Source: an uncultured Poribacteria bacterium
GTDB lineage: Bacteria > Poribacteria > WGA-4E > WGA-3G
Assembly: GCA_951813565.1 (NCBI GenBank)
Contig: OX638351.1
Location: 2,112,001-2,176,000, forward strand
Length of the DNA: 64,000 bases
Reading direction: 5' to 3'
Translations under genes and position numbers: made by a program
Shown: positions 3,941 to 49,570 of the stretch, in pieces
Numbering within the stretch: position 1 is the first letter of the stretch
Layout of the letters: the number at the start of each line of letters is the position of its first letter
Notes under the pieces: generated by a model
What the model was told of the DNA's origin: nothing
The model's input: only the letters and a program-made list of their open reading frames with translations
Databases searched by the model: none

Positions 3941-4110
3941 TATAGTGAGCTTTAGAATTAACAGGACATTTTGAGTTGTGAATCAACGCCAAATGCGCGT
4001 TTGGCATTTGGCGGGAGGGAACTTCGATTCCCGACTATCAGTGAATTTCATCGCGATTCGGAGATCGCTCCTACAGAAAATGTGCCTCTTTAATTTCAAG
4101 GTTCACCATA
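3941..4110. mobile_element. MITE-like cassette (TATAGT-type TIR) around a REP pair
   Basis: Imperfect TIR tatagtgagctttagaattaa / ttaatttcaaggttcaccata; core gagggaacttcgattcccgac...tcgcgattcggagatcgctcctaca shared with 13168-13302. Confidence 0.65.
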
Positions 4111-7558: not shown

Positions 7559-7826
7559 GAGGGGTGTGCATAAATATTTGGTGCATCAACACAGACAGGG
7601 ACAGACGCCAAGTGCCGCTTGATTTATAGAAATGCGTTTGTAGTCGCGCAATTCATTGCCAAATCAACGCAGCATGCGCCAAATCAAGAAATCAACGGTA
7701 TGAATGCCTTATAGCATTCCCCGTGTGGCATGCTGCGCCTCTTTGAACTTGTGGACGGAAACCCACGGCGTGTGCGGACTACCTTTAAGCGCATATTTAA
7801 CATCGGAATTATTTATGCACACCCTC
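7559..7826. mobile_element. MITE with GAGGGTGTGCATAAAT TIR and 8-bp target duplication
   Basis: TSD acgtattt at 7551-7558 and 7827-7834; first ~100 bp repeated at 12987-13090. Confidence 0.85.
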
Positions 7827-8907: not shown

Positions 8908-9394
8908 ACCCAAGTTGCTACCTATAAGATTTTAGACACACAAACGCCATTTTTAATAAAGAACAGTTCGTTATTGGTGAAATATTGTAGCGCAAACTTT
9001 ATGAAGATTAATTTATTAATTCGGTCCTTTTGATCTTTTTTCTGTCTGAATCGCGGAAAACGCGGAGAACACCAAATCAACGGTCCGAATCATGGCGAAT
9101 GCCATACGGGGAATGCCAGCAGGCATTCATACCGTTGATTTGGCGCATTCGTCTTTAGGCATTCCCCGGAGAACACGGAAAATGCTATTGTGTTTCCATA
9201 TTTACCTTCACAAATAAACAGGTTGGATTATCAAAACATTCTTCTTTCCGCGTTTTCCGCGCCTTCCGTGATTCAGACAACCAGATAATGAACCTCACAC
9301 AAGAAAACATAAAACAAGATGTCGATGGTTAGGAAATTACCGAAATATTTTTTTATCTTCATAAAGTTTGTGCTACATAGGTGGCAACTTAGGT
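8908..9394. mobile_element. MITE with ACC(C/T)AAGTTGC(C/T)ACCTA TIR and 7-bp TSD
   Basis: TSD tatttta at 8901-8907 and 9395-9401; same TIR family as 63143-63334. Confidence 0.85.
8986..9377. mobile_element. Nested TIR element (TGTAGC(A/G)CAAACTTTATGAAGAT)
   Basis: 23-bp inverted repeat with 1 mismatch; no clear TSD. Confidence 0.72.
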
Positions 9395-12914: not shown

Positions 12915-13302
12915 CAGAGCCGTTCAATTGTCGCGAAGTCCTCGTGTGGAAGGGCTTTGTCCGCCCGATTTTGGTTCAAATTAAATGAGGAGTGTGCATA
13001 AATATTTGACGCATCAACACAGACAAGGACAGACGCCAGGTGCCGCTTGATTTATAGAAATGCGTTTGTAGTCGCGCAATTCATTGCGCCTCTTTTTAGC
13101 GCCTTTTGAGGTGTTGTTTCACACTTCTGTATTCAAAAAATGTCGGTATTAGAATTTGACTGACTATTATAGCGGATTCTACAATTAACTGGACATCTGA
13201 GCTGTCCGAGGGAACTCCGATTCCCGACTACCAGCGGTTTCGTCGCGATTCGGAGATCGCTCCTACAGAATATATGTGAACTTATTTACATAATTTACTA
13301 TA
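12915..13302. repeat. Cluster of partial MITEs and REPs
   Basis: Left ends of the 8872- and 7559-type elements, an uninterrupted REP gtagtcgcgcaattcattgcgcc (13068-13090), and a TATAG-type cassette at 13168-13302. Confidence 0.7.
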
Positions 13303-13984: not shown

Positions 13985-14086
13985 AAAACATTATTTTGAA
14001 CTGCGAACCAAACTAACACCAAATGCGCGTATAGCATTTGGCGGATATGTCTATTCCGTTACGCGCTAAAAAGAAAGGAGCATATC

Positions 14087-23738: not shown

Positions 23739-23885
23739 GTAGGGCGGGGTCCCTGTGCCTGCCCGTTGCATAGCACGTCCTGCGCAGTGGCGGGGCACCA
23801 AATCAAGAAATCAACGGTATGAATAACATTTAGTTATTCACCGGGTATGAATGCCTTATGGCATTCCCCGGGACCCCGCCCTACA
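23739..23885. repeat. REP doublet interrupted by a CAAATCAA micro-insertion (23799-23869)
   Basis: gtagggcggggtccctgtgcc ... ggcac[insert]gggaccccgccctac. Confidence 0.75.
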
Positions 23886-29991: not shown

Positions 29992-30248
29992 TATAATGCC
30001 GCATAAATTAAGTGGATATTTTGGGTGCATTTGCGGCGTTTGTTGTCGCGCAATTCATTGCCAAATCAACGCCAAGCACACTTATGGCACTTGTCGCCTC
30101 TTACATTCAACATAATATGAGTTTCAAAATGCTATAAAGTCTTCTAAATGGTCTGTTATTTTCAGAATGGGTATAACTTTATTTGACTGTCTAATTGCAT
30201 CCACCCTTCAATAAAACGCAAACTTGCTCAAATTGTGGGAGTTTTAAA

Positions 30249-46289: not shown

Positions 46290-46484
46290 GGCCACGGAGG
46301 AGCGACCATGGCAGAAGTCGAGATTCCATGGATTATCAATGGTCCGGGAATCTTACCTGCAAAAGAACTGAATAAATTCGTGAACATCTACGATACAGCA
46401 GCGACGGTTGCACACATTTTCGGTTTGACTCCACCGGACTGTTGGATTGCAAAACCTGTATTGGAGGCGTTTGGTTTACCATAA
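46290..46484 (+). pseudogene. C-terminal fragment of an alkaline-phosphatase-superfamily (phosphodiesterase) gene
   Basis: GHGGATMAEVEIPWIINGPGI...YDTAATVAHIFGL...W starting at the IS607 right end. Confidence 0.72.
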
Positions 46485-46729
46485 TCTTTTTTGATGACCT
46501 AATGACAATTTGCTGTTCACCTATAAACAAACTATTCAAGTGGTAGATCGTGATACCTTATTCACTTAATCTATCTGGTATGATGATCAGTTTCGTCGGT
46601 TTGCACCATTATTTTAGCACTCCCCGTCAAACCCCGTGCCTTTAGGTAGGGGATGTAGACGGCGAAAGGTTTGATTTAAATAAACTTGGCAATCTAATCA
46701 AAATGTGGTATAATATATCATATACTATA

Positions 46730-47167
46730 ATGAAAAGGCAAGATATTATGCCACTAAAAATCGCTAATAAGAAACGTAATTACAAAACAAGCAACAGGAC
46801 AGTCTATAGTTGCCAATATCACGTTATCTGGTGTGTGAAGTATAGGCGTAAGGTTTTAGAGACACAAATACAAGGTAGACTGAAACAACTCATAGAAGAA
46901 AAACAAGACGAGTATGAGTATCAAATCCGTGAGGTTGAAACACAACCTGAACATGTTCACTTGCTCATAGAAATCCCGCCAATGCATTCTATTGATAAAA
47001 TCGTTGGAAAAATCAAAGGCTATACGGCTAAAGTTTTACGTGAAGAATACCCAAGTTTGAAAAGTCGTTTGCCCTCTCTTTGGACACGGAGCAAGTTTGT
47101 GAGTTCCTGTGGTGGTGTAACACTCAAAGTGATAAAAGACTATATTGAAGGTCAAAGCGGACAATGA
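46730..47167 (+). CDS. tnpA: IS200/IS605 HUH (Y1) transposase
   Basis: YHVIWCVKYRRKVL, EHVHLL (HUH), LWTRS, YIEGQ catalytic Tyr; start 46730 or 46748. Confidence 0.95.
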   Translation: MKRQDIMPLKIANKKRNYKTSNRTVYSCQYHVIWCVKYRRKVLETQIQGRLKQLIEEKQDEYEYQIREVETQPEHVHLLIEIPPMHSIDKIVGKIKGYTAKVLREEYPSLKSRLPSLWTRSKFVSSCGGVTLKVIKDYIEGQSGQ

Positions 47168-48276
47168 GAAAAGCGGACAAGTTCAAACTTCAAAACCAAT
47201 CTAACACAATCAAACTCGGCAATATGCTTGATGATATGTGGGAAATCCATGTGCATATCATGCGTTTGGAGCGTAGGTATTATCGCATGTTCGGCAAAAA
47301 TTTGTCTGCGTATCGTCTGAAGGCACATGTTGCGAAACTCAAAAAAACAACTAAACCACACTGGGCGGACTTGCCGAGTCAAGTTGTTCAAGACGTTGTG
47401 CTGCGTTATGGTAAATCTCAAGACGCTTTCTTTGAGAATATCGAAGACCGAAAAGCGGGCAAAACAACGCGTAAAGTGGGTAGACCGAAAATCAAACCGA
47501 GACACAAATACAACTCCATGACCTTCACACAAGCGGGCTACAAACTTGAAGAGAACCGTATCAAAATCAACTGTATAGATACATGGTTTTCCTTTCACAA
47601 ACACCGTGAAATCAAAGGTGTCATCAAGACGATCACAATCAAACGTGACAGGTGCGGTGACTATTGGATATGCTTTTCGTGCGAGAATGTTGAGGATTCC
47701 GAACCCAAACCCAAGACAGGTAAGAGCGCAGGATTTGATTACGGAAACAAAACATTCCTCACAAGCGACGAAGGTGACACAATAGAATCCCCGCAGTTTT
47801 TCAAACAATCACTCAACACGTTGCGAGCTCTCAACAAAGCACTCAGTCGTAAAGTCAAAGGTTCTAACAACTATTATCGTGCGTGCCGTGCTTTGGCAAG
47901 ACAACACAGAAAAGTTGCCAGACAAAGAGAAGATTGGCAGTGGAAACTTGCTACCCAACTTTGCACGGAGTTTGATACACTCTACTTTGAAACTTTGAAC
48001 CTTGATGGTATGAAACGGCTTTGGGGACGCAAAGTCTCTGACCACGCCTTCTACCATTTCGGACAGATACTGGAACAGAAGTGTGTGAAGCACGGTAAAA
48101 AACTTGTCCAAATCAGTCAATGGACAGCAACGATAAAACCTTGCAGTGATTGTGGATACCATAACGAAGAACTCTCTCTCGCAGATAGACAGTGGACATG
48201 CCCCGAATGTGGCTCACACCACGACCGAGACATCAACGCTGCTATCAATATCAAACGGGCAGGCTTGGCTGCCTAA
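47164..48276 (+). CDS. tnpB: TnpB RNA-guided endonuclease
   Basis: RuvC D (GFDYG), E (FETLN), D (DRDINAA); CSDC/CPEC zinc finger. Confidence 0.95.
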   Translation: MRKADKFKLQNQSNTIKLGNMLDDMWEIHVHIMRLERRYYRMFGKNLSAYRLKAHVAKLKKTTKPHWADLPSQVVQDVVLRYGKSQDAFFENIEDRKAGKTTRKVGRPKIKPRHKYNSMTFTQAGYKLEENRIKINCIDTWFSFHKHREIKGVIKTITIKRDRCGDYWICFSCENVEDSEPKPKTGKSAGFDYGNKTFLTSDEGDTIESPQFFKQSLNTLRALNKALSRKVKGSNNYYRACRALARQHRKVARQREDWQWKLATQLCTEFDTLYFETLNLDGMKRLWGRKVSDHAFYHFGQILEQKCVKHGKKLVQISQWTATIKPCSDCGYHNEELSLADRQWTCPECGSHHDRDINAAINIKRAGLAA

Positions 48277-48388
48277 AGTGGAGCGACACTAAGACGGTCA
48301 ACTCTCTGAGAAAACCGCAGTCGCAAGGAAGCACAAGCCCCTACCTTTAGGTAGTGGGTACCTATGACGTAACACTCTCTCTAAATAC
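48255..48388 (+). ncRNA. 3' part of the TnpB omegaRNA (right end plus flanking guide)
   Basis: Position at the tnpB 3' end; stems ggcag/ctgcc, gcgac/gtcgc and the end hairpin; 5' boundary unknown. Confidence 0.7.
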
Positions 48389-48425
48389 TATTCATTATAA
48401 CTGATAATATCATGAGGAGATTATT

Positions 48426-49268
48426 ATGATATACAGGACAATAAAATCAATTACAAAGGCGATCCTTGTAATCGCTTTATGTTTTACAACACTACCAATT
48501 TTGGGGGCTGAAACAGTAATTTTTGAAGAAGATTTTGAGGCAGTGAAACTTGAAGATAGCATAGAGGAAGGGGTAAAAGGCGTTAAAGTTTGGTCAGGTA
48601 TACCACCTGAAGGTTGGGAAATTACAAACGAAAATCCTAAAGACCTCGGCATGCCCGAATGGCGAACGTGGGCAATTGTTGACCTTGAGTGGTGGAGACA
48701 AACTGCTGGTGACCAAGAACGCAGTCAGTTCACTACGAAACAGAAGGACGGTAAAGGTATAGGGAATGGCGCGGTTTCAGACCCAGATGAGTGGGACGAT
48801 TGGGAAGTAAACGGTGACCCCGACGGTAAAAGTGCCTGGAACGGTCACTTAATTACGCCCTCTATTAAAATCAAAGGTGCAGCTGCGGAATCACTTGTTT
48901 TAACATTTGATTCCAGTTGGCGCCCTGATGACCCCCAAAGAGGTGAGATAACAGTAAGTTTTGACGGCGGTAAGGAAGAGCAAATTTTATTATTTGAGAG
49001 TTCTGGTGCACAGACCCTTGTTACCATTCCTACTCTAAGGAAAAATGAGGAAAAAGTAAACGATTTAGAACAGGTAAACGAAACTTTAGAAATCCCGATT
49101 GACAATCCTGCGGATGCCACTGAAATTGTTATTAGTTTCGGTCTCCTTAATGCCCGGAATGATTGGTGGTGGGCGATAGATAACATCAAACTCATAAGCA
49201 CTGCATTTGATGTAGAACCGAGAGATAAATTAGCAGTGAAATGGGCAGAAATAAAACGCTTAAAATAA
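48426..49268 (+). CDS. Secreted beta-sandwich protein with conserved C-terminal motif
   Basis: Signal peptide, IFEEDFE, NDWWWAIDNI, ends VEPRDKLAVKWAEIKRLK. Confidence 0.8.
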   Translation: MIYRTIKSITKAILVIALCFTTLPILGAETVIFEEDFEAVKLEDSIEEGVKGVKVWSGIPPEGWEITNENPKDLGMPEWRTWAIVDLEWWRQTAGDQERSQFTTKQKDGKGIGNGAVSDPDEWDDWEVNGDPDGKSAWNGHLITPSIKIKGAAAESLVLTFDSSWRPDDPQRGEITVSFDGGKEEQILLFESSGAQTLVTIPTLRKNEEKVNDLEQVNETLEIPIDNPADATEIVISFGLLNARNDWWWAIDNIKLISTAFDVEPRDKLAVKWAEIKRLK

Positions 49269-49370: not shown

Positions 49371-49570
49371 ATACCATTTCTAAACAATAACTTCTCATTA
49401 ACAAAAATGCGTTTGTAGTCGCGCAATTTATTGCGCCTCGGACATTTCTTTCAAAGAAAAATAATTCATAGCATTGGTATTATATCAAATTAACCTGATT
49501 CCACTCGATAGGCACGCTTTGTAAGCGCACCTAATCCACAAAGAATACCATAAATCAGCTAATTTGGTAT
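49371..49570. mobile_element. Two tandem MITE-like cassettes with ATACCA-type TIRs, each around one REP
   Basis: ataccatttcta / tagcattggtat (49371-49480) and atatcaaattaacctgatt / aatcagctaatttggtat (49482-49570). Confidence 0.55.

What the first reader, a model, noticed from the sequence alone, without database searches (positions are those of the whole stretch)
7660..7736. Family of 34-35-nt 'CAAATCAAC + hairpin' micro-insertions at C^G steps inside REP hairpins and inside each other
Seen: the REP gtagtcgcgcaattcattgc^gcc is uninterrupted at 13068-13090 (and as a 1-nt variant at 49415-49437) but is split at the same C^G step at 7660 and 30062. Type A units are exactly 34 nt (9-nt leader, 9-nt arm, 7-nt loop, 9-nt arm): caaatcaac-gcagcatgc-gcgtgtg-gcatgctgc (7660-7736 after removing a nested unit), caaactaac-accaaatgc-gcgtata-gcatttggc (14009-14042, splitting hairpin gcgaac^ggatatgtctattccgttacgc), caaatcaac-gccaagcac-acttatg-gcacttgtc (30062-30095) and tgaatcaac-gccaaatgc-gcgtttg-gcatttggc (3979-4012, degenerate left flank). 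Arms covary (gccaaatgc/gcatttggc vs gcagcatgc/gcatgctgc). Type B units (caaatcaac-ggtatgaatgcc-NNNN-ggcattcccc, 35 nt core) occur at 9108-9142 (minus strand), 7680-7722 and 23799-23869. There is no target duplication and no TIR. Inference: an ultra-small mobile element moved in trans, with asymmetric, duplication-free insertion reminiscent of single-strand HUH (Y1/RAYT) chemistry. I do not recognise it as a described family.
Basis: partly seen in the sequence, partly recalled or inferred. Interest (0 to 1): 0.9.

Follow-up and report, generated by a model that had tools for sequence, protein, structure and literature searches.

The report
Tiny tag-plus-hairpin mobile DNA
A 34-35-base piece of non-coding DNA (a fixed short tag plus a small hairpin) has been slotted hundreds of times, cleanly and always in one orientation, into other hairpin repeats and into its own copies in one genus of sponge-symbiont bacteria, making it one of the smallest mobile-looking DNAs known, with its moving enzyme still unidentified.

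Summary
All cited sites exist as described. The tag gives the most frequent 9-mers of the 5.43-Mb genome. A strict scan finds 403 tag+hairpin units, 280 of 34 nt and 113 of 35 nt. For 254 of 393 units an exact unit-less copy of the same site exists elsewhere in the genome. Insertion leaves no target duplication. Its orientation relative to the host repeat is fixed: 84:0, 95:0 and 144:0. The base after the unit is G in 115 of 130 distinct contexts; C^G is the commonest step but not universal. Stems covary. The family was found in all 36 other same-genus Candidatus Poribacteria genomes searched and only at background level in 24 genomes of three sister families. The site of the 14009 unit is empty in other species.

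What moves it stays open. RAYT genes are flanked by GTAG-type REPs, which are the hosts, not by these units. One single-contig genome carries units but no detectable Y1 or reverse transcriptase. Cas1, IS110 and the resident IS605 ends do not fit.

The scan had already reported this family at least ten times elsewhere in this genome. It is a new variant of the tagged-REP / very-small-mobile-repeat kind.

The parts
7640..7659 (+). 5' part of host repeat REP1 (GTAG tag plus most of its palindrome), cut after ...cattgc
   Evidence: identical to 13068-13087 of the uninterrupted copy
7660..7679 (+). Outer type A unit, first 20 nt: 9-nt leader, 9-nt 5' arm, first two loop bases
   Evidence: With 7723-7736 it makes an exact 34-nt unit. 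The DNA fold keeps the outer stem.
7680..7722 (+). Nested type B unit (43 nt) with an 8-nt leader duplication, sitting in the loop of the outer unit at a C^G step
   Evidence: The loop site TGCGC^ holds 144 direct and 0 inverted units genome-wide. Type B junctions are C^G in 139 of 144.
7723..7736 (+). Outer type A unit, last 14 nt: rest of the loop and the 3' arm
7737..7739 (+). 3' remainder (gcc) of host REP1
13068..13090 (+). Uninterrupted REP1, a paralogous empty site
   Evidence: Of 216 REP1 cores in the genome, 130 are empty and 84 are filled at this step.
49415..49437 (+). Uninterrupted REP1 variant (1 nt different)
30062..30095 (+). Degenerate type A unit at the same REP1 step
   Evidence: weak fold, z -1.25
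14009..14042 (+). Type A unit with a 2-nt leader variant, inside the 5' arm of a gene-end hairpin
   Evidence: The unit is absent from every orthologous region that aligned in register in other species of the genus (10 or more of 20 loci). It is present in contigs of all 4 laid runs.
3979..4012 (+). Type A unit with a TG head, directly 5' of a GGG-started hairpin
9073..9168 (+). 96-nt mosaic: a plus-strand unit whose inner hairpin carries a minus-strand type B unit (9108-9142)
23799..23869 (+). Double-leader type B unit followed by a leaderless type B hairpin, in the loop (cac^ggga) of a host hairpin

Best explanation
What it is: a non-coding micro-element family restricted, in the genomes searched, to one genus of Candidatus Poribacteria. 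A unit is an unpaired 9-nt leader (two variable bases plus AATCAAC) followed directly by a hairpin with a 9-bp stem and a 7-8-nt loop. Type B is a related bulged hairpin behind the same leader. The architecture is that of a tagged REP, but with a new and longer tag.

What is shown: whole units have been placed to the nucleotide, without target duplication and always in one orientation relative to the host. They sit immediately 5' of a G, mostly C^GG. Hosts are other hairpin repeats (REP1, RAYT-type GTAG/GTGG REPs), the loops of their own copies, and the 3' end of a previous unit. That last site is re-created by each insertion, which gives head-to-tail arrays.

How it most likely works (inferred): the unit is recognised as a folded single strand through its hairpin. 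Its two ends are set by structure, 9 nt before the 5' foot and exactly at the 3' foot. It is cut and joined in trans by a strand-specific single-strand DNA transesterase. The only candidate class detected is a Y1 HUH enzyme of the RAYT / IS200 kind.

Further spread comes from riding along when host REPs multiply and from slippage in arrays.

My odds: real insertion-type mobility about 0.9; a single-strand, structure-guided mechanism about 0.55; a Y1/RAYT enzyme about 0.3-0.35.
For: Abundance, fixed size and fold:
- The tag gives the top 9-mers of the genome.
- 403 strict units, of which 280 are 34 nt and 113 are 35 nt.
- DNA folds leave the leader unpaired.
- Compensatory stem changes, for example pair 4 as GC 27 and AT 27, and pair 3 as CG 29, TA 16, AT 10, among 59 distinct sequences.

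Exact boundaries and empty sites:
- 254 of 393 units have an exact 18-mer empty paralog; the R2 host is unambiguous.
- The right end follows the stem, not a fixed base: 26 units begin A and end T.

Action in trans:
- 109 distinct unit sequences among 393. One 30-copy class sits in 19 flank contexts. The median distance to the nearest identical copy is 62 kb.

Strand and orientation specificity:
- REP1: 84 direct, 0 inverted, 0 at the mirror site.
- R2: 95 direct, 0 inverted.
- Type A loop: 144 direct, 0 inverted.
- This holds with 11 and 8 different hairpin types at the REP1 and R2 sites.

Target:
- G follows the unit in 115 of 130 distinct contexts.
- Type B junctions are C^G in 139 of 144, with GGCAC or TGCGC upstream in 118.
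- The same flank rules appear in other species (83 units) and in metagenome contigs (70 units).

Lineage-specific gain:
- The 14009 site is empty in other species.
- Copy number ranges from 3 to 357 within the genus, with species-specific stem variants.

Link to Y1/RAYT:
- RAYT/REP biochemistry uses an unpaired 5' tag as a guide plus a hairpin, and cuts 5' or 3' of the structure (PMC8266576, sections read).
- 19 RAYT-positive genomes have a median of 37 copies; 18 RAYT-negative genomes have a median of 16. Mann-Whitney p = 0.0009, not corrected for kinship.
Against: - No gene is tied to the units. RAYT genes in G000 and at 11 fetched loci of other genomes are flanked by GTAG/GTGG-type REPs, not by AATCAAC units.
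- The RAYT association may be indirect, since RAYTs make the host REPs that the units land in.
- G023 is one contig and 92% complete. It has no Y1_Tnp match at E <= 1e-5 and no RVT_1 match. Yet it has 42 leader hits, 16 clean units, arrays and nesting.
- G010 and G030 also lack a Y1 match, with 27 and 17 copies.
- There is no specific 4-5-nt sequence 5' of the insertion point of the kind IS200/IS605 elements use. The upstream base is C in 63, G in 42, T in 13 and A in 12 of 130 contexts.
- Orientation shows no replichore pattern. GC skew gives no usable origin or terminus, so this test is void.
- Only 4 of 393 units have unique flanks on both sides. Many 'insertions' may therefore be copies made together with their host repeat.
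- In R3-type REPs the filled copies lack two tag bases, so the event there was not clean.
- The leader's first two bases track the host. There are 0 CA heads among 95 R2 sites and 84 of 84 at REP1. A simple 'one element, one sequence' model does not explain this.
Confidence: 0.45

Rival explanations
1. Mostly passengers. Only a handful of true insertions ever happened. The hundreds of copies arose because host repeats (RAYT-mobilised REPs, longer MITE-like repeats) multiplied with a unit already inside. Arrays then grew, shrank and swapped hairpins by slippage or unequal exchange between identical leaders.
For: - Only 4 of 393 units have two unique flanks.
- Large classes share long identical flanks: 19-28 copies of one roughly 100-nt repeat carry the same unit, and 25 CG-head copies share the same 15 nt upstream.
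- Arrays show a 69-nt period, that is, dimers of units.
- Head dinucleotides follow host subfamilies.
- The leader itself shows 8-nt tandem duplications.
Against: - Each host type still needs at least one precise non-homologous insertion.
- There are 130 distinct contexts.
- The same identical unit lies in up to 19 different flanks.
- 11 hairpin types occupy the single REP1 step.
- A unit sits in a non-repeated gene-end hairpin that is empty in other species.
- A unit placed between tag and hairpin would be expected to disrupt RAYT recognition of a REP. This is an inference from PMC8266576.
Confidence: 0.2
2. Real mobile DNA, but moved by something other than a Y1 HUH enzyme. Examples: a tyrosine recombinase acting on folded single strands (as integron attC sites or CTX phage do; mechanism recalled), an uncharacterised nuclease/ligase, or a housekeeping enzyme.
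For: - G023 has units, arrays and nesting without any Y1_Tnp or RVT_1 match.
- No unit-flanked transposase gene was found among 16 genes flanked by units on both sides; these are housekeeping genes plus one Cas1.
- There is no conserved upstream target word.
Against: - No candidate gene has been named.
- Empty sites contain no copy of the leader, so a model that needs a pre-existing core site at the target (integron-like) fails.
- All six genomes with more than 100 copies have a RAYT.
Confidence: 0.2
3. Retro-insertion: a small transcript of the unit is reverse-transcribed into nicks at N^G steps.
For: G000 has reverse-transcriptase genes. The variable first two bases could be junction noise.
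Against: - RVT_1 was not found in G023 or G001, and G023 has many units.
- Orientation relative to flanking genes is near random, 105 co-directional against 144 opposite.
- There are no truncated series or tails; unit lengths are 34-35 nt in 393 of 403.
Confidence: 0.04
4. Off-target integration of spacer-sized DNA by the CRISPR integrase Cas1. Unit size is near the 34-40-nt spacers of the resident array.
For: A Cas1 gene next to a reverse transcriptase and a 54-repeat array is flanked by units on both sides.
Against: - Cas1 was not found in G006 (143 copies), G017 or G021 (the last two single-contig genomes).
- Cas1 is present in G001 (3 copies) and in sister families that lack the units.
- The CRISPR repeat is unrelated to the unit, and there is no repeat duplication at insertions.
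Confidence: 0.02
5. Not mobile: a conserved cis-acting hairpin (terminator, RNA stabiliser, protein-binding site) that arose repeatedly or is kept by selection.
For: Stems covary and most copies are intact. The units are intergenic.
Against: - Units interrupt other repeats and each other at exact points, with empty paralogs.
- There is no orientation preference relative to genes.
- Rfam gave no match over the family thresholds in the window.
- Units decay at single loci, for example 30062.
- The orthologous site is empty in other species.
Confidence: 0.03

Closest known systems
Tagged REPs / BIMEs with RAYT (TnpA-REP) Y1 HUH enzymes. Sources: PMC8266576 (sections read); PMC3733652 (abstract, section 7 and passages); PMC3116915 (passages).
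   Same: - A small hairpin preceded by a conserved unpaired 5' tag.
- Hundreds of extragenic copies that form mosaics with other repeats.
- Strand-specific behaviour.
- PMC3733652 reports REPs sitting inside other small palindromes, with empty targets present in the genome.
- PMC3733652 also reports a whole tagged super-family (CGTC) that lacks a dedicated transposase.
   Different: - The tag is 7-9 nt (AATCAAC), not GTAG or CGTC.
- No RAYT gene is flanked by these units.
- Units are head-to-tail, with no spacer and no alternating orientation.
- They nest inside their own loops.
- They use true GTAG/GTGG REPs as landing sites.
Small dispersed repeats SDR1-8 of heterocystous cyanobacteria (Elhai et al. 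2008, Genome Res 18:1484). The paper is not held. I saw only its citation and one sentence about it in PMC3116915. Its features are recalled.
   Same: Recalled: very small non-coding repeats, below MITE size. They appear inserted into each other and into hairpin-forming contexts, without coding capacity, target duplication or a known enzyme.
   Different: A different phylum. Recalled: SDRs are shorter (about 21-27 nt). I could not compare sequences or insertion rules because the paper and its supplements could not be read.
IS200/IS605 insertion sequences and their gene-less derivatives (mechanism as summarised in PMC8266576)
   Same: No inverted terminal repeats and no target duplication. Hairpins serve as recognition elements. 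Ends are set at fixed distances from a hairpin. Insertion is strand-specific.
   Different: - One hairpin, not two.
- No similarity to the ends of the resident IS605.
- No conserved 4-5-nt word 5' of the insertion point; instead a G on the 3' side.
- Replication-strand bias could not be tested.

Membership tests
REP / REPtron (RAYT-associated) | Palindrome of 20-50 nt preceded by a conserved unpaired tetranucleotide, most often GTAG (PMC8266576) | tested here: not met
   The architecture (unpaired 5' tag plus hairpin) is met. The tag is NN+AATCAAC, and there is no GTAG or CGTC.
REP / REPtron (RAYT-associated) | A cognate tnpA-REP gene with these repeats in its immediate proximity | tested here: not met
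   Three RAYT-like genes in G000 and 11 loci in other genomes are flanked by GTAG/GTGG-type REPs. A single unit lies upstream of two G000 RAYT genes (L009, L011) and next to one locus of another genome (L049), but not on both sides or at the other loci.
REP / REPtron (RAYT-associated) | High copy number, mostly intergenic | tested here: met
   About 830 leader-bearing units of recognisable type in G000 (403 + 307 + 112 + 9). 20 of 416 single-orientation loci lie inside crude ORF calls.
REP / REPtron (RAYT-associated) | Cleavage and strand transfer of the single-stranded repeat by the RAYT protein | not testable with these tools
   Needs purified protein and oligonucleotides.
IS200/IS605-derived gene-less element | Ends resemble the left and right ends of a resident IS200/IS605 copy | tested here: not met
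   The left and right ends of the 3 aligned IS605 copies carry different hairpins and no AATCAAC tag. The AATCAAC inside them lies within tnpB coding sequence.
IS200/IS605-derived gene-less element | Insertion 3' of a specific tetra- or pentanucleotide; orientation tied to the replication direction | tested here: inconclusive
   The upstream base varies and the downstream base is G in 115 of 130 contexts. For type B, GGCAC or TGCGC lies upstream in 118 of 144, but many of those copies share a host. No replichores could be defined.
MITE (DDE transposase-dependent) | Terminal inverted repeats and a target-site duplication | tested here: not met
   The leader has no inverted partner within the unit. 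The R2 empty sites show no duplicated base.
Small dispersed repeats (Elhai 2008) | Family definitions SDR1-8 and their insertion contexts | not tested
   The paper is not held. The resemblance is recalled.
Integron attC site | Two paired core sites at the base of the hairpin, and a core site already present at the target | tested here: not met
   The leader is unpaired within the unit. Empty sites hold no leader copy. The consensus itself is recalled.
CRISPR array | Repeats separated by unique spacers; cas genes | tested here: not met
   Units abut with no spacer (121 direct tandem joints). The genome's real CRISPR repeat is unrelated. The Cas1 phyletic pattern does not fit.

The most novel reading that the evidence does not exclude
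A self-nesting single-strand micro-transposon that parasitises the REP/RAYT system. Its own hairpin subtype decides where it lands: type B goes into the loops of type A, and type A goes to the feet of REP hairpins. It is moved by chemistry other than the known Y1, reverse-transcriptase, Cas1 or IS110 routes. That would be either a new mobilising enzyme or a housekeeping enzyme hijacked by a 34-nt DNA.
Probability: 0.22. Interest if true: 0.85.

Novelty: new variant of a known kind. Interest (0 to 1): 0.6.

Why it matters
How REPs and other very small repeats spread is a long-standing open question. [quoted passage not shown]

This family gives unusually clean material for that question:
- fixed boundaries;
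- hundreds of filled and empty versions of the same sites;
- strict orientation;
- nested copies that record the order of events;
- a set of about 40 related genomes with 3 to 357 copies, some with and some without RAYT genes.

That makes the question testable with short oligonucleotides and a few proteins.

A 34-nt DNA that can be placed at a defined point of a hairpin without duplication would also be of interest as a minimal insertion module.

On the practical side, these units break short-read assemblies at every copy. They can also be mistaken for regulatory RNA hairpins.

Tried and rejected
- Resident IS605 as source: its left and right ends are unrelated, and the AATCAAC in it is tnpB coding sequence.
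- RAYT genes flanked by units (REPtron test): negative.
- Screen for genes flanked by units on both sides: 16 genes, all housekeeping types by eye plus one Cas1, none scanned against Pfam. A wider list of 38 inverted pairs was not followed further.
- Cas1: rejected by its phyletic pattern and by the unrelated CRISPR repeat.
- Reverse transcriptase: not found in G023.
- IS110 DEDD: none in 5 genomes, with working controls.
- IS91 Y2: none in 5 genomes, but the control genomes were silent too, so this says little.
- Replication-strand bias: GC skew follows local gene orientation and gives no origin or terminus, so the test is void.
- Orientation relative to genes: weak, 105 against 144.
- Rfam: no match at gathering score in the window.
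- Empty or filled alleles in public runs: 8 runs from 4 studies hold the stretch. Contigs of the 4 laid runs break at the repeats. The 14009 unit is present in all 4. One joint that skips 9073-9168 has only 30-36 nt on its short side and lies in a high-depth repeat, so I do not count it as an allele.
- Exact-pattern scan of metagenome contigs for an empty 14009 site: 0 hits.
- Guide-type pairing between the leader and the flanks, following the RAYT rules of PMC8266576: I found no consistent scheme by inspection.
- Elhai 2008 could not be read. Supplements of the papers I read were not opened.

Full report
1. THE OBSERVATION

The cited sequences are all there.
- REP1 is a GTAG tag plus the palindrome gcgcaat-tc-attgcgc. 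It is intact at 13068-13090 and, with one change, at 49415-49437.
- At 7660 and at 30062 it is cut after ...cattgc and resumes with gcc.
- At 7660 the insert is 77 nt. Taking out 7680-7722 (43 nt, type B with a duplicated leader) leaves 9-nt leader + 9-nt arm + 7-nt loop + 9-nt arm = 34 nt.
- Further units are at 3979, 14009, 23799 and 9073/9142.
- As single-stranded DNA the leader stays unpaired and the hairpins fold, with z from -2.5 to -5. The 30062 copy is decayed, with z -1.25.

2. SCALE

The window lies in a single-contig genome of 5,426,982 bp and 43.1% GC.
- AAATCAACG (433 copies) and CCAAATCAA (420) are its two most frequent 9-mers.
- A strict scan asked for NN+AATCAAC followed directly by a hairpin with at most one mismatch. 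It gives 403 units, 280 of 34 nt and 113 of 35 nt.
- A looser sort covers all 2,358 AATCAAC sites, where about 933 are expected from base composition. It gives 403 type A, 307 type B, 112 type A with a nested leader, 9 with an inverted unit and 1,527 other.
- Of 649 CAAATCAAC sites, 211 are followed at once by at least 8 of 9 pairs, against 9 of 20,000 random 26-mers.
- Among 59 distinct sequences, four stem positions show compensatory changes.

3. BOUNDARIES, EMPTY SITES, TARGET

- For 254 of 393 units of 34-35 nt, joining the flanks gives an 18-mer that exists elsewhere in the genome.
- In the R2 host (ttgtgggag^gggttttcaacccc) 27 exact empty copies fit the stated boundary, against 2 each for the two neighbouring registers in the G run. 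So there is no duplicated and no shared base there. Elsewhere the cut point is ambiguous by 1-3 shared bases.
- After collapsing tandem runs, 393 units form 307 arrays in 130 distinct 7+7-nt contexts. The base after the unit is G in 115, and GG in 95. The base before it is C in 63, G in 42, T in 13 and A in 12.
- Type B units are stricter: C^G in 139 of 144, with GGCAC or TGCGC upstream in 118.
- The same flank pattern holds for 83 units from other Poribacteria genomes and for 70 units from metagenome contigs.
- The right end is set by the stem. Units whose stem begins with A end with T (26 units).

4. ORIENTATION AND ASYMMETRY (the strongest clue to mechanism)

- REP1's palindrome offers the same ...attgc^gc step on both strands.
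- Of 216 REP1 cores, 130 are empty and 84 are filled on the tag-bearing strand. None is filled at the mirror step and none holds an inverted unit.
- The R2 site holds 95 direct and 0 inverted units. The type A loop site holds 144 direct and 0 inverted.
- The REP1 step holds 11 different hairpin types and the R2 step 8. One inherited event therefore does not explain this, unless hairpins were later swapped within arrays.
- A blunt double-strand insertion at a palindromic CpG would give both orientations. The data call for recognition of one strand, or of an asymmetric structure.

5. IN TRANS, AND LINEAGE-SPECIFIC

- The 393 units comprise 109 distinct sequences. One 30-copy class sits in 19 different flank contexts.
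- The nearest identical copy is at a median of 62 kb, against 106 kb for shuffled labels. 19% lie within 1 kb against 6% for shuffles, which reflects the tandem arrays.
- The exact 12-mer CCAAATCAACGC occurs 3 to 357 times in all 36 other genomes of the genus searched. It occurs 0-5 times in 24 genomes of three sister families, where the reversed control gives 0-4.
- A pattern scan of one genome per species returned only Candidatus Poribacteria MAGs and one 'uncultured bacterium' MAG among the 80 listed loci.
- The 14009 unit lies in a gene-end hairpin. In the orthologous intergenic region of other species (at most 78% identical), the unit is absent from every sequence that aligned in register, 10 or more of the 20 aligned loci. 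Minus-strand loci were not re-oriented and are uninformative.
- Within the species it looks fixed: contigs from 4 runs of 4 studies all carry it.

6. WHO MOVES IT

G000 has these Y1 genes: five IS605 tnpA copies, one other Y1 (L007), two intact RAYT-like genes, one RAYT-like gene with an in-frame stop, and remnants.
- The IS605 ends are unrelated to the units.
- The RAYT genes here and at 11 loci of other genomes are flanked by GTAG/GTGG-tagged REPs. In G006 these include R2-type REPs.
- So the units' hosts are genuine RAYT REPs, and the units look like guests of that system.
- Across 37 genomes, 19 with a RAYT (E <= 1e-43) have a median of 37 copies and include all six with more than 100. The 18 without a RAYT have a median of 16 and at most 42. 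Mann-Whitney p = 0.0009, not corrected for kinship.
- Against a Y1 requirement: G023 is one contig and 92% complete. It has no Y1_Tnp and no RVT_1 match. Yet it has 16 clean units with its own stem variants, plus arrays and nesting. These could be relics, because GTAG REPs also persist there without a RAYT.
- Cas1 is excluded by its distribution.
- IS110 was not found. IS91 was not found either, but its control was silent.
- Orientation relative to genes is near random. Replichores could not be defined.

7. COMPLICATIONS

- Only 4 of 393 units have two unique flanks. Many copies share long flanks and were surely copied together with their host.
- The two variable leader bases follow the host. 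CA comes after C: 84 of 84 at REP1 and 139 of 143 in loops. TG, CG or GG come after G: 94 of 95 at R2 sites, the other being AA, and none CA. The same holds in other species.
- This may be descent within host subfamilies plus leader slippage in arrays, or it may be a target-dependent junction. I cannot tell which.
- In R3-type REPs the filled copies lack two bases of the tag.
- The leader shows 8-nt tandem duplications.
- A leaderless hairpin family with the same loop also exists.

8. COMPARISON WITH WHAT IS KNOWN, AND VERDICT

- In architecture this is a tagged REP. REPs are 20-50-nt palindromes preceded by a conserved tetranucleotide that acts as a guide for a Y1 enzyme, which cuts 5' or 3' of the structure (PMC8266576).
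- PMC3733652 reports REPs lying inside other palindromes, and a tagged super-family without a known transposase.
- The present family differs in four ways: its tag, its lack of an associated gene, its head-to-tail spacer-less arrays, and its self-nesting.
- The very small mobile repeats of cyanobacteria (Elhai 2008) are the nearest precedent in behaviour, but I could not read that paper.
- None of my five completed paper searches turned up a description of this family or of Poribacteria repeats.
- The scan itself has reported the same family at least ten times elsewhere in this genome, with the same open end.
  a. strict orientation and mirror-site counts;
  b. the finding that G after the unit, rather than C^G, is the constant;
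  c. subtype-specific landing sites;
  d. the identification of the hosts as RAYT REPs;
  e. phyletic tests that exclude Cas1 and IS110 and weaken both Y1 and reverse transcriptase as necessary factors.
- Verdict: real, striking and already seen in this scan. It is a new variant of a known kind, and its mechanism is unresolved.

Noticed in passing
window 46400-48900 (tnpA at about 46748-47170): An IS200/IS605-family element with tnpA and tnpB. At least three near-identical copies exist in the genome, plus two more tnpA copies. Its ends are unrelated to the micro-units.
   Followed up: partly
G000:C1:3988991-3996400 (outside the window; locus L164): A Cas1 gene, a separate reverse-transcriptase gene and a CRISPR array of 54 copies of a 37-nt repeat with 34-40-nt spacers. 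This is a reverse-transcriptase-associated adaptation module.
   Followed up: partly
window 7560-7640 and 13000-13068: REP1 is preceded at both places by the same stretch of about 80-100 nt. So REP1 here is the end of a longer dispersed repeat.
   Followed up: no
G000:C1:3549542-3550090 (outside the window): A RAYT-like gene with one in-frame TAG, flanked by inverted R3-type GTAG REPs. It is either a pseudogene or read through.
   Followed up: no
genome-wide; for example window 7680-7696 and 23799-23815: The leader occurs as an 8-nt tandem duplication in 123 copies, and once as a triple. This suggests slippage within the tag.
   Followed up: partly
genome-wide; nested in type B mosaics such as those shown: A leaderless hairpin family with the same inner stem and loop as type A but a different short head. 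There are 64 hairpins without a leader, most of them within one amplified composite.
   Followed up: partly
whole genome G000: GC skew shows no two-replichore pattern and instead follows local gene orientation. The origin and terminus cannot be read from composition.
   Followed up: partly
G009 (same genus): About 20 Y1_Tnp matches, many of them split by an in-frame TAG at the same place. This looks like a burst of one IS200-type element with a shared stop codon.
   Followed up: no
PMC3733652, section 7: That paper's consensus for the long palindromes that hold Anabaena variabilis GTAG-15 dimers contains an AATCAAAT / ATTTGATT pair. This resembles the leader here and may be coincidence.
   Followed up: no
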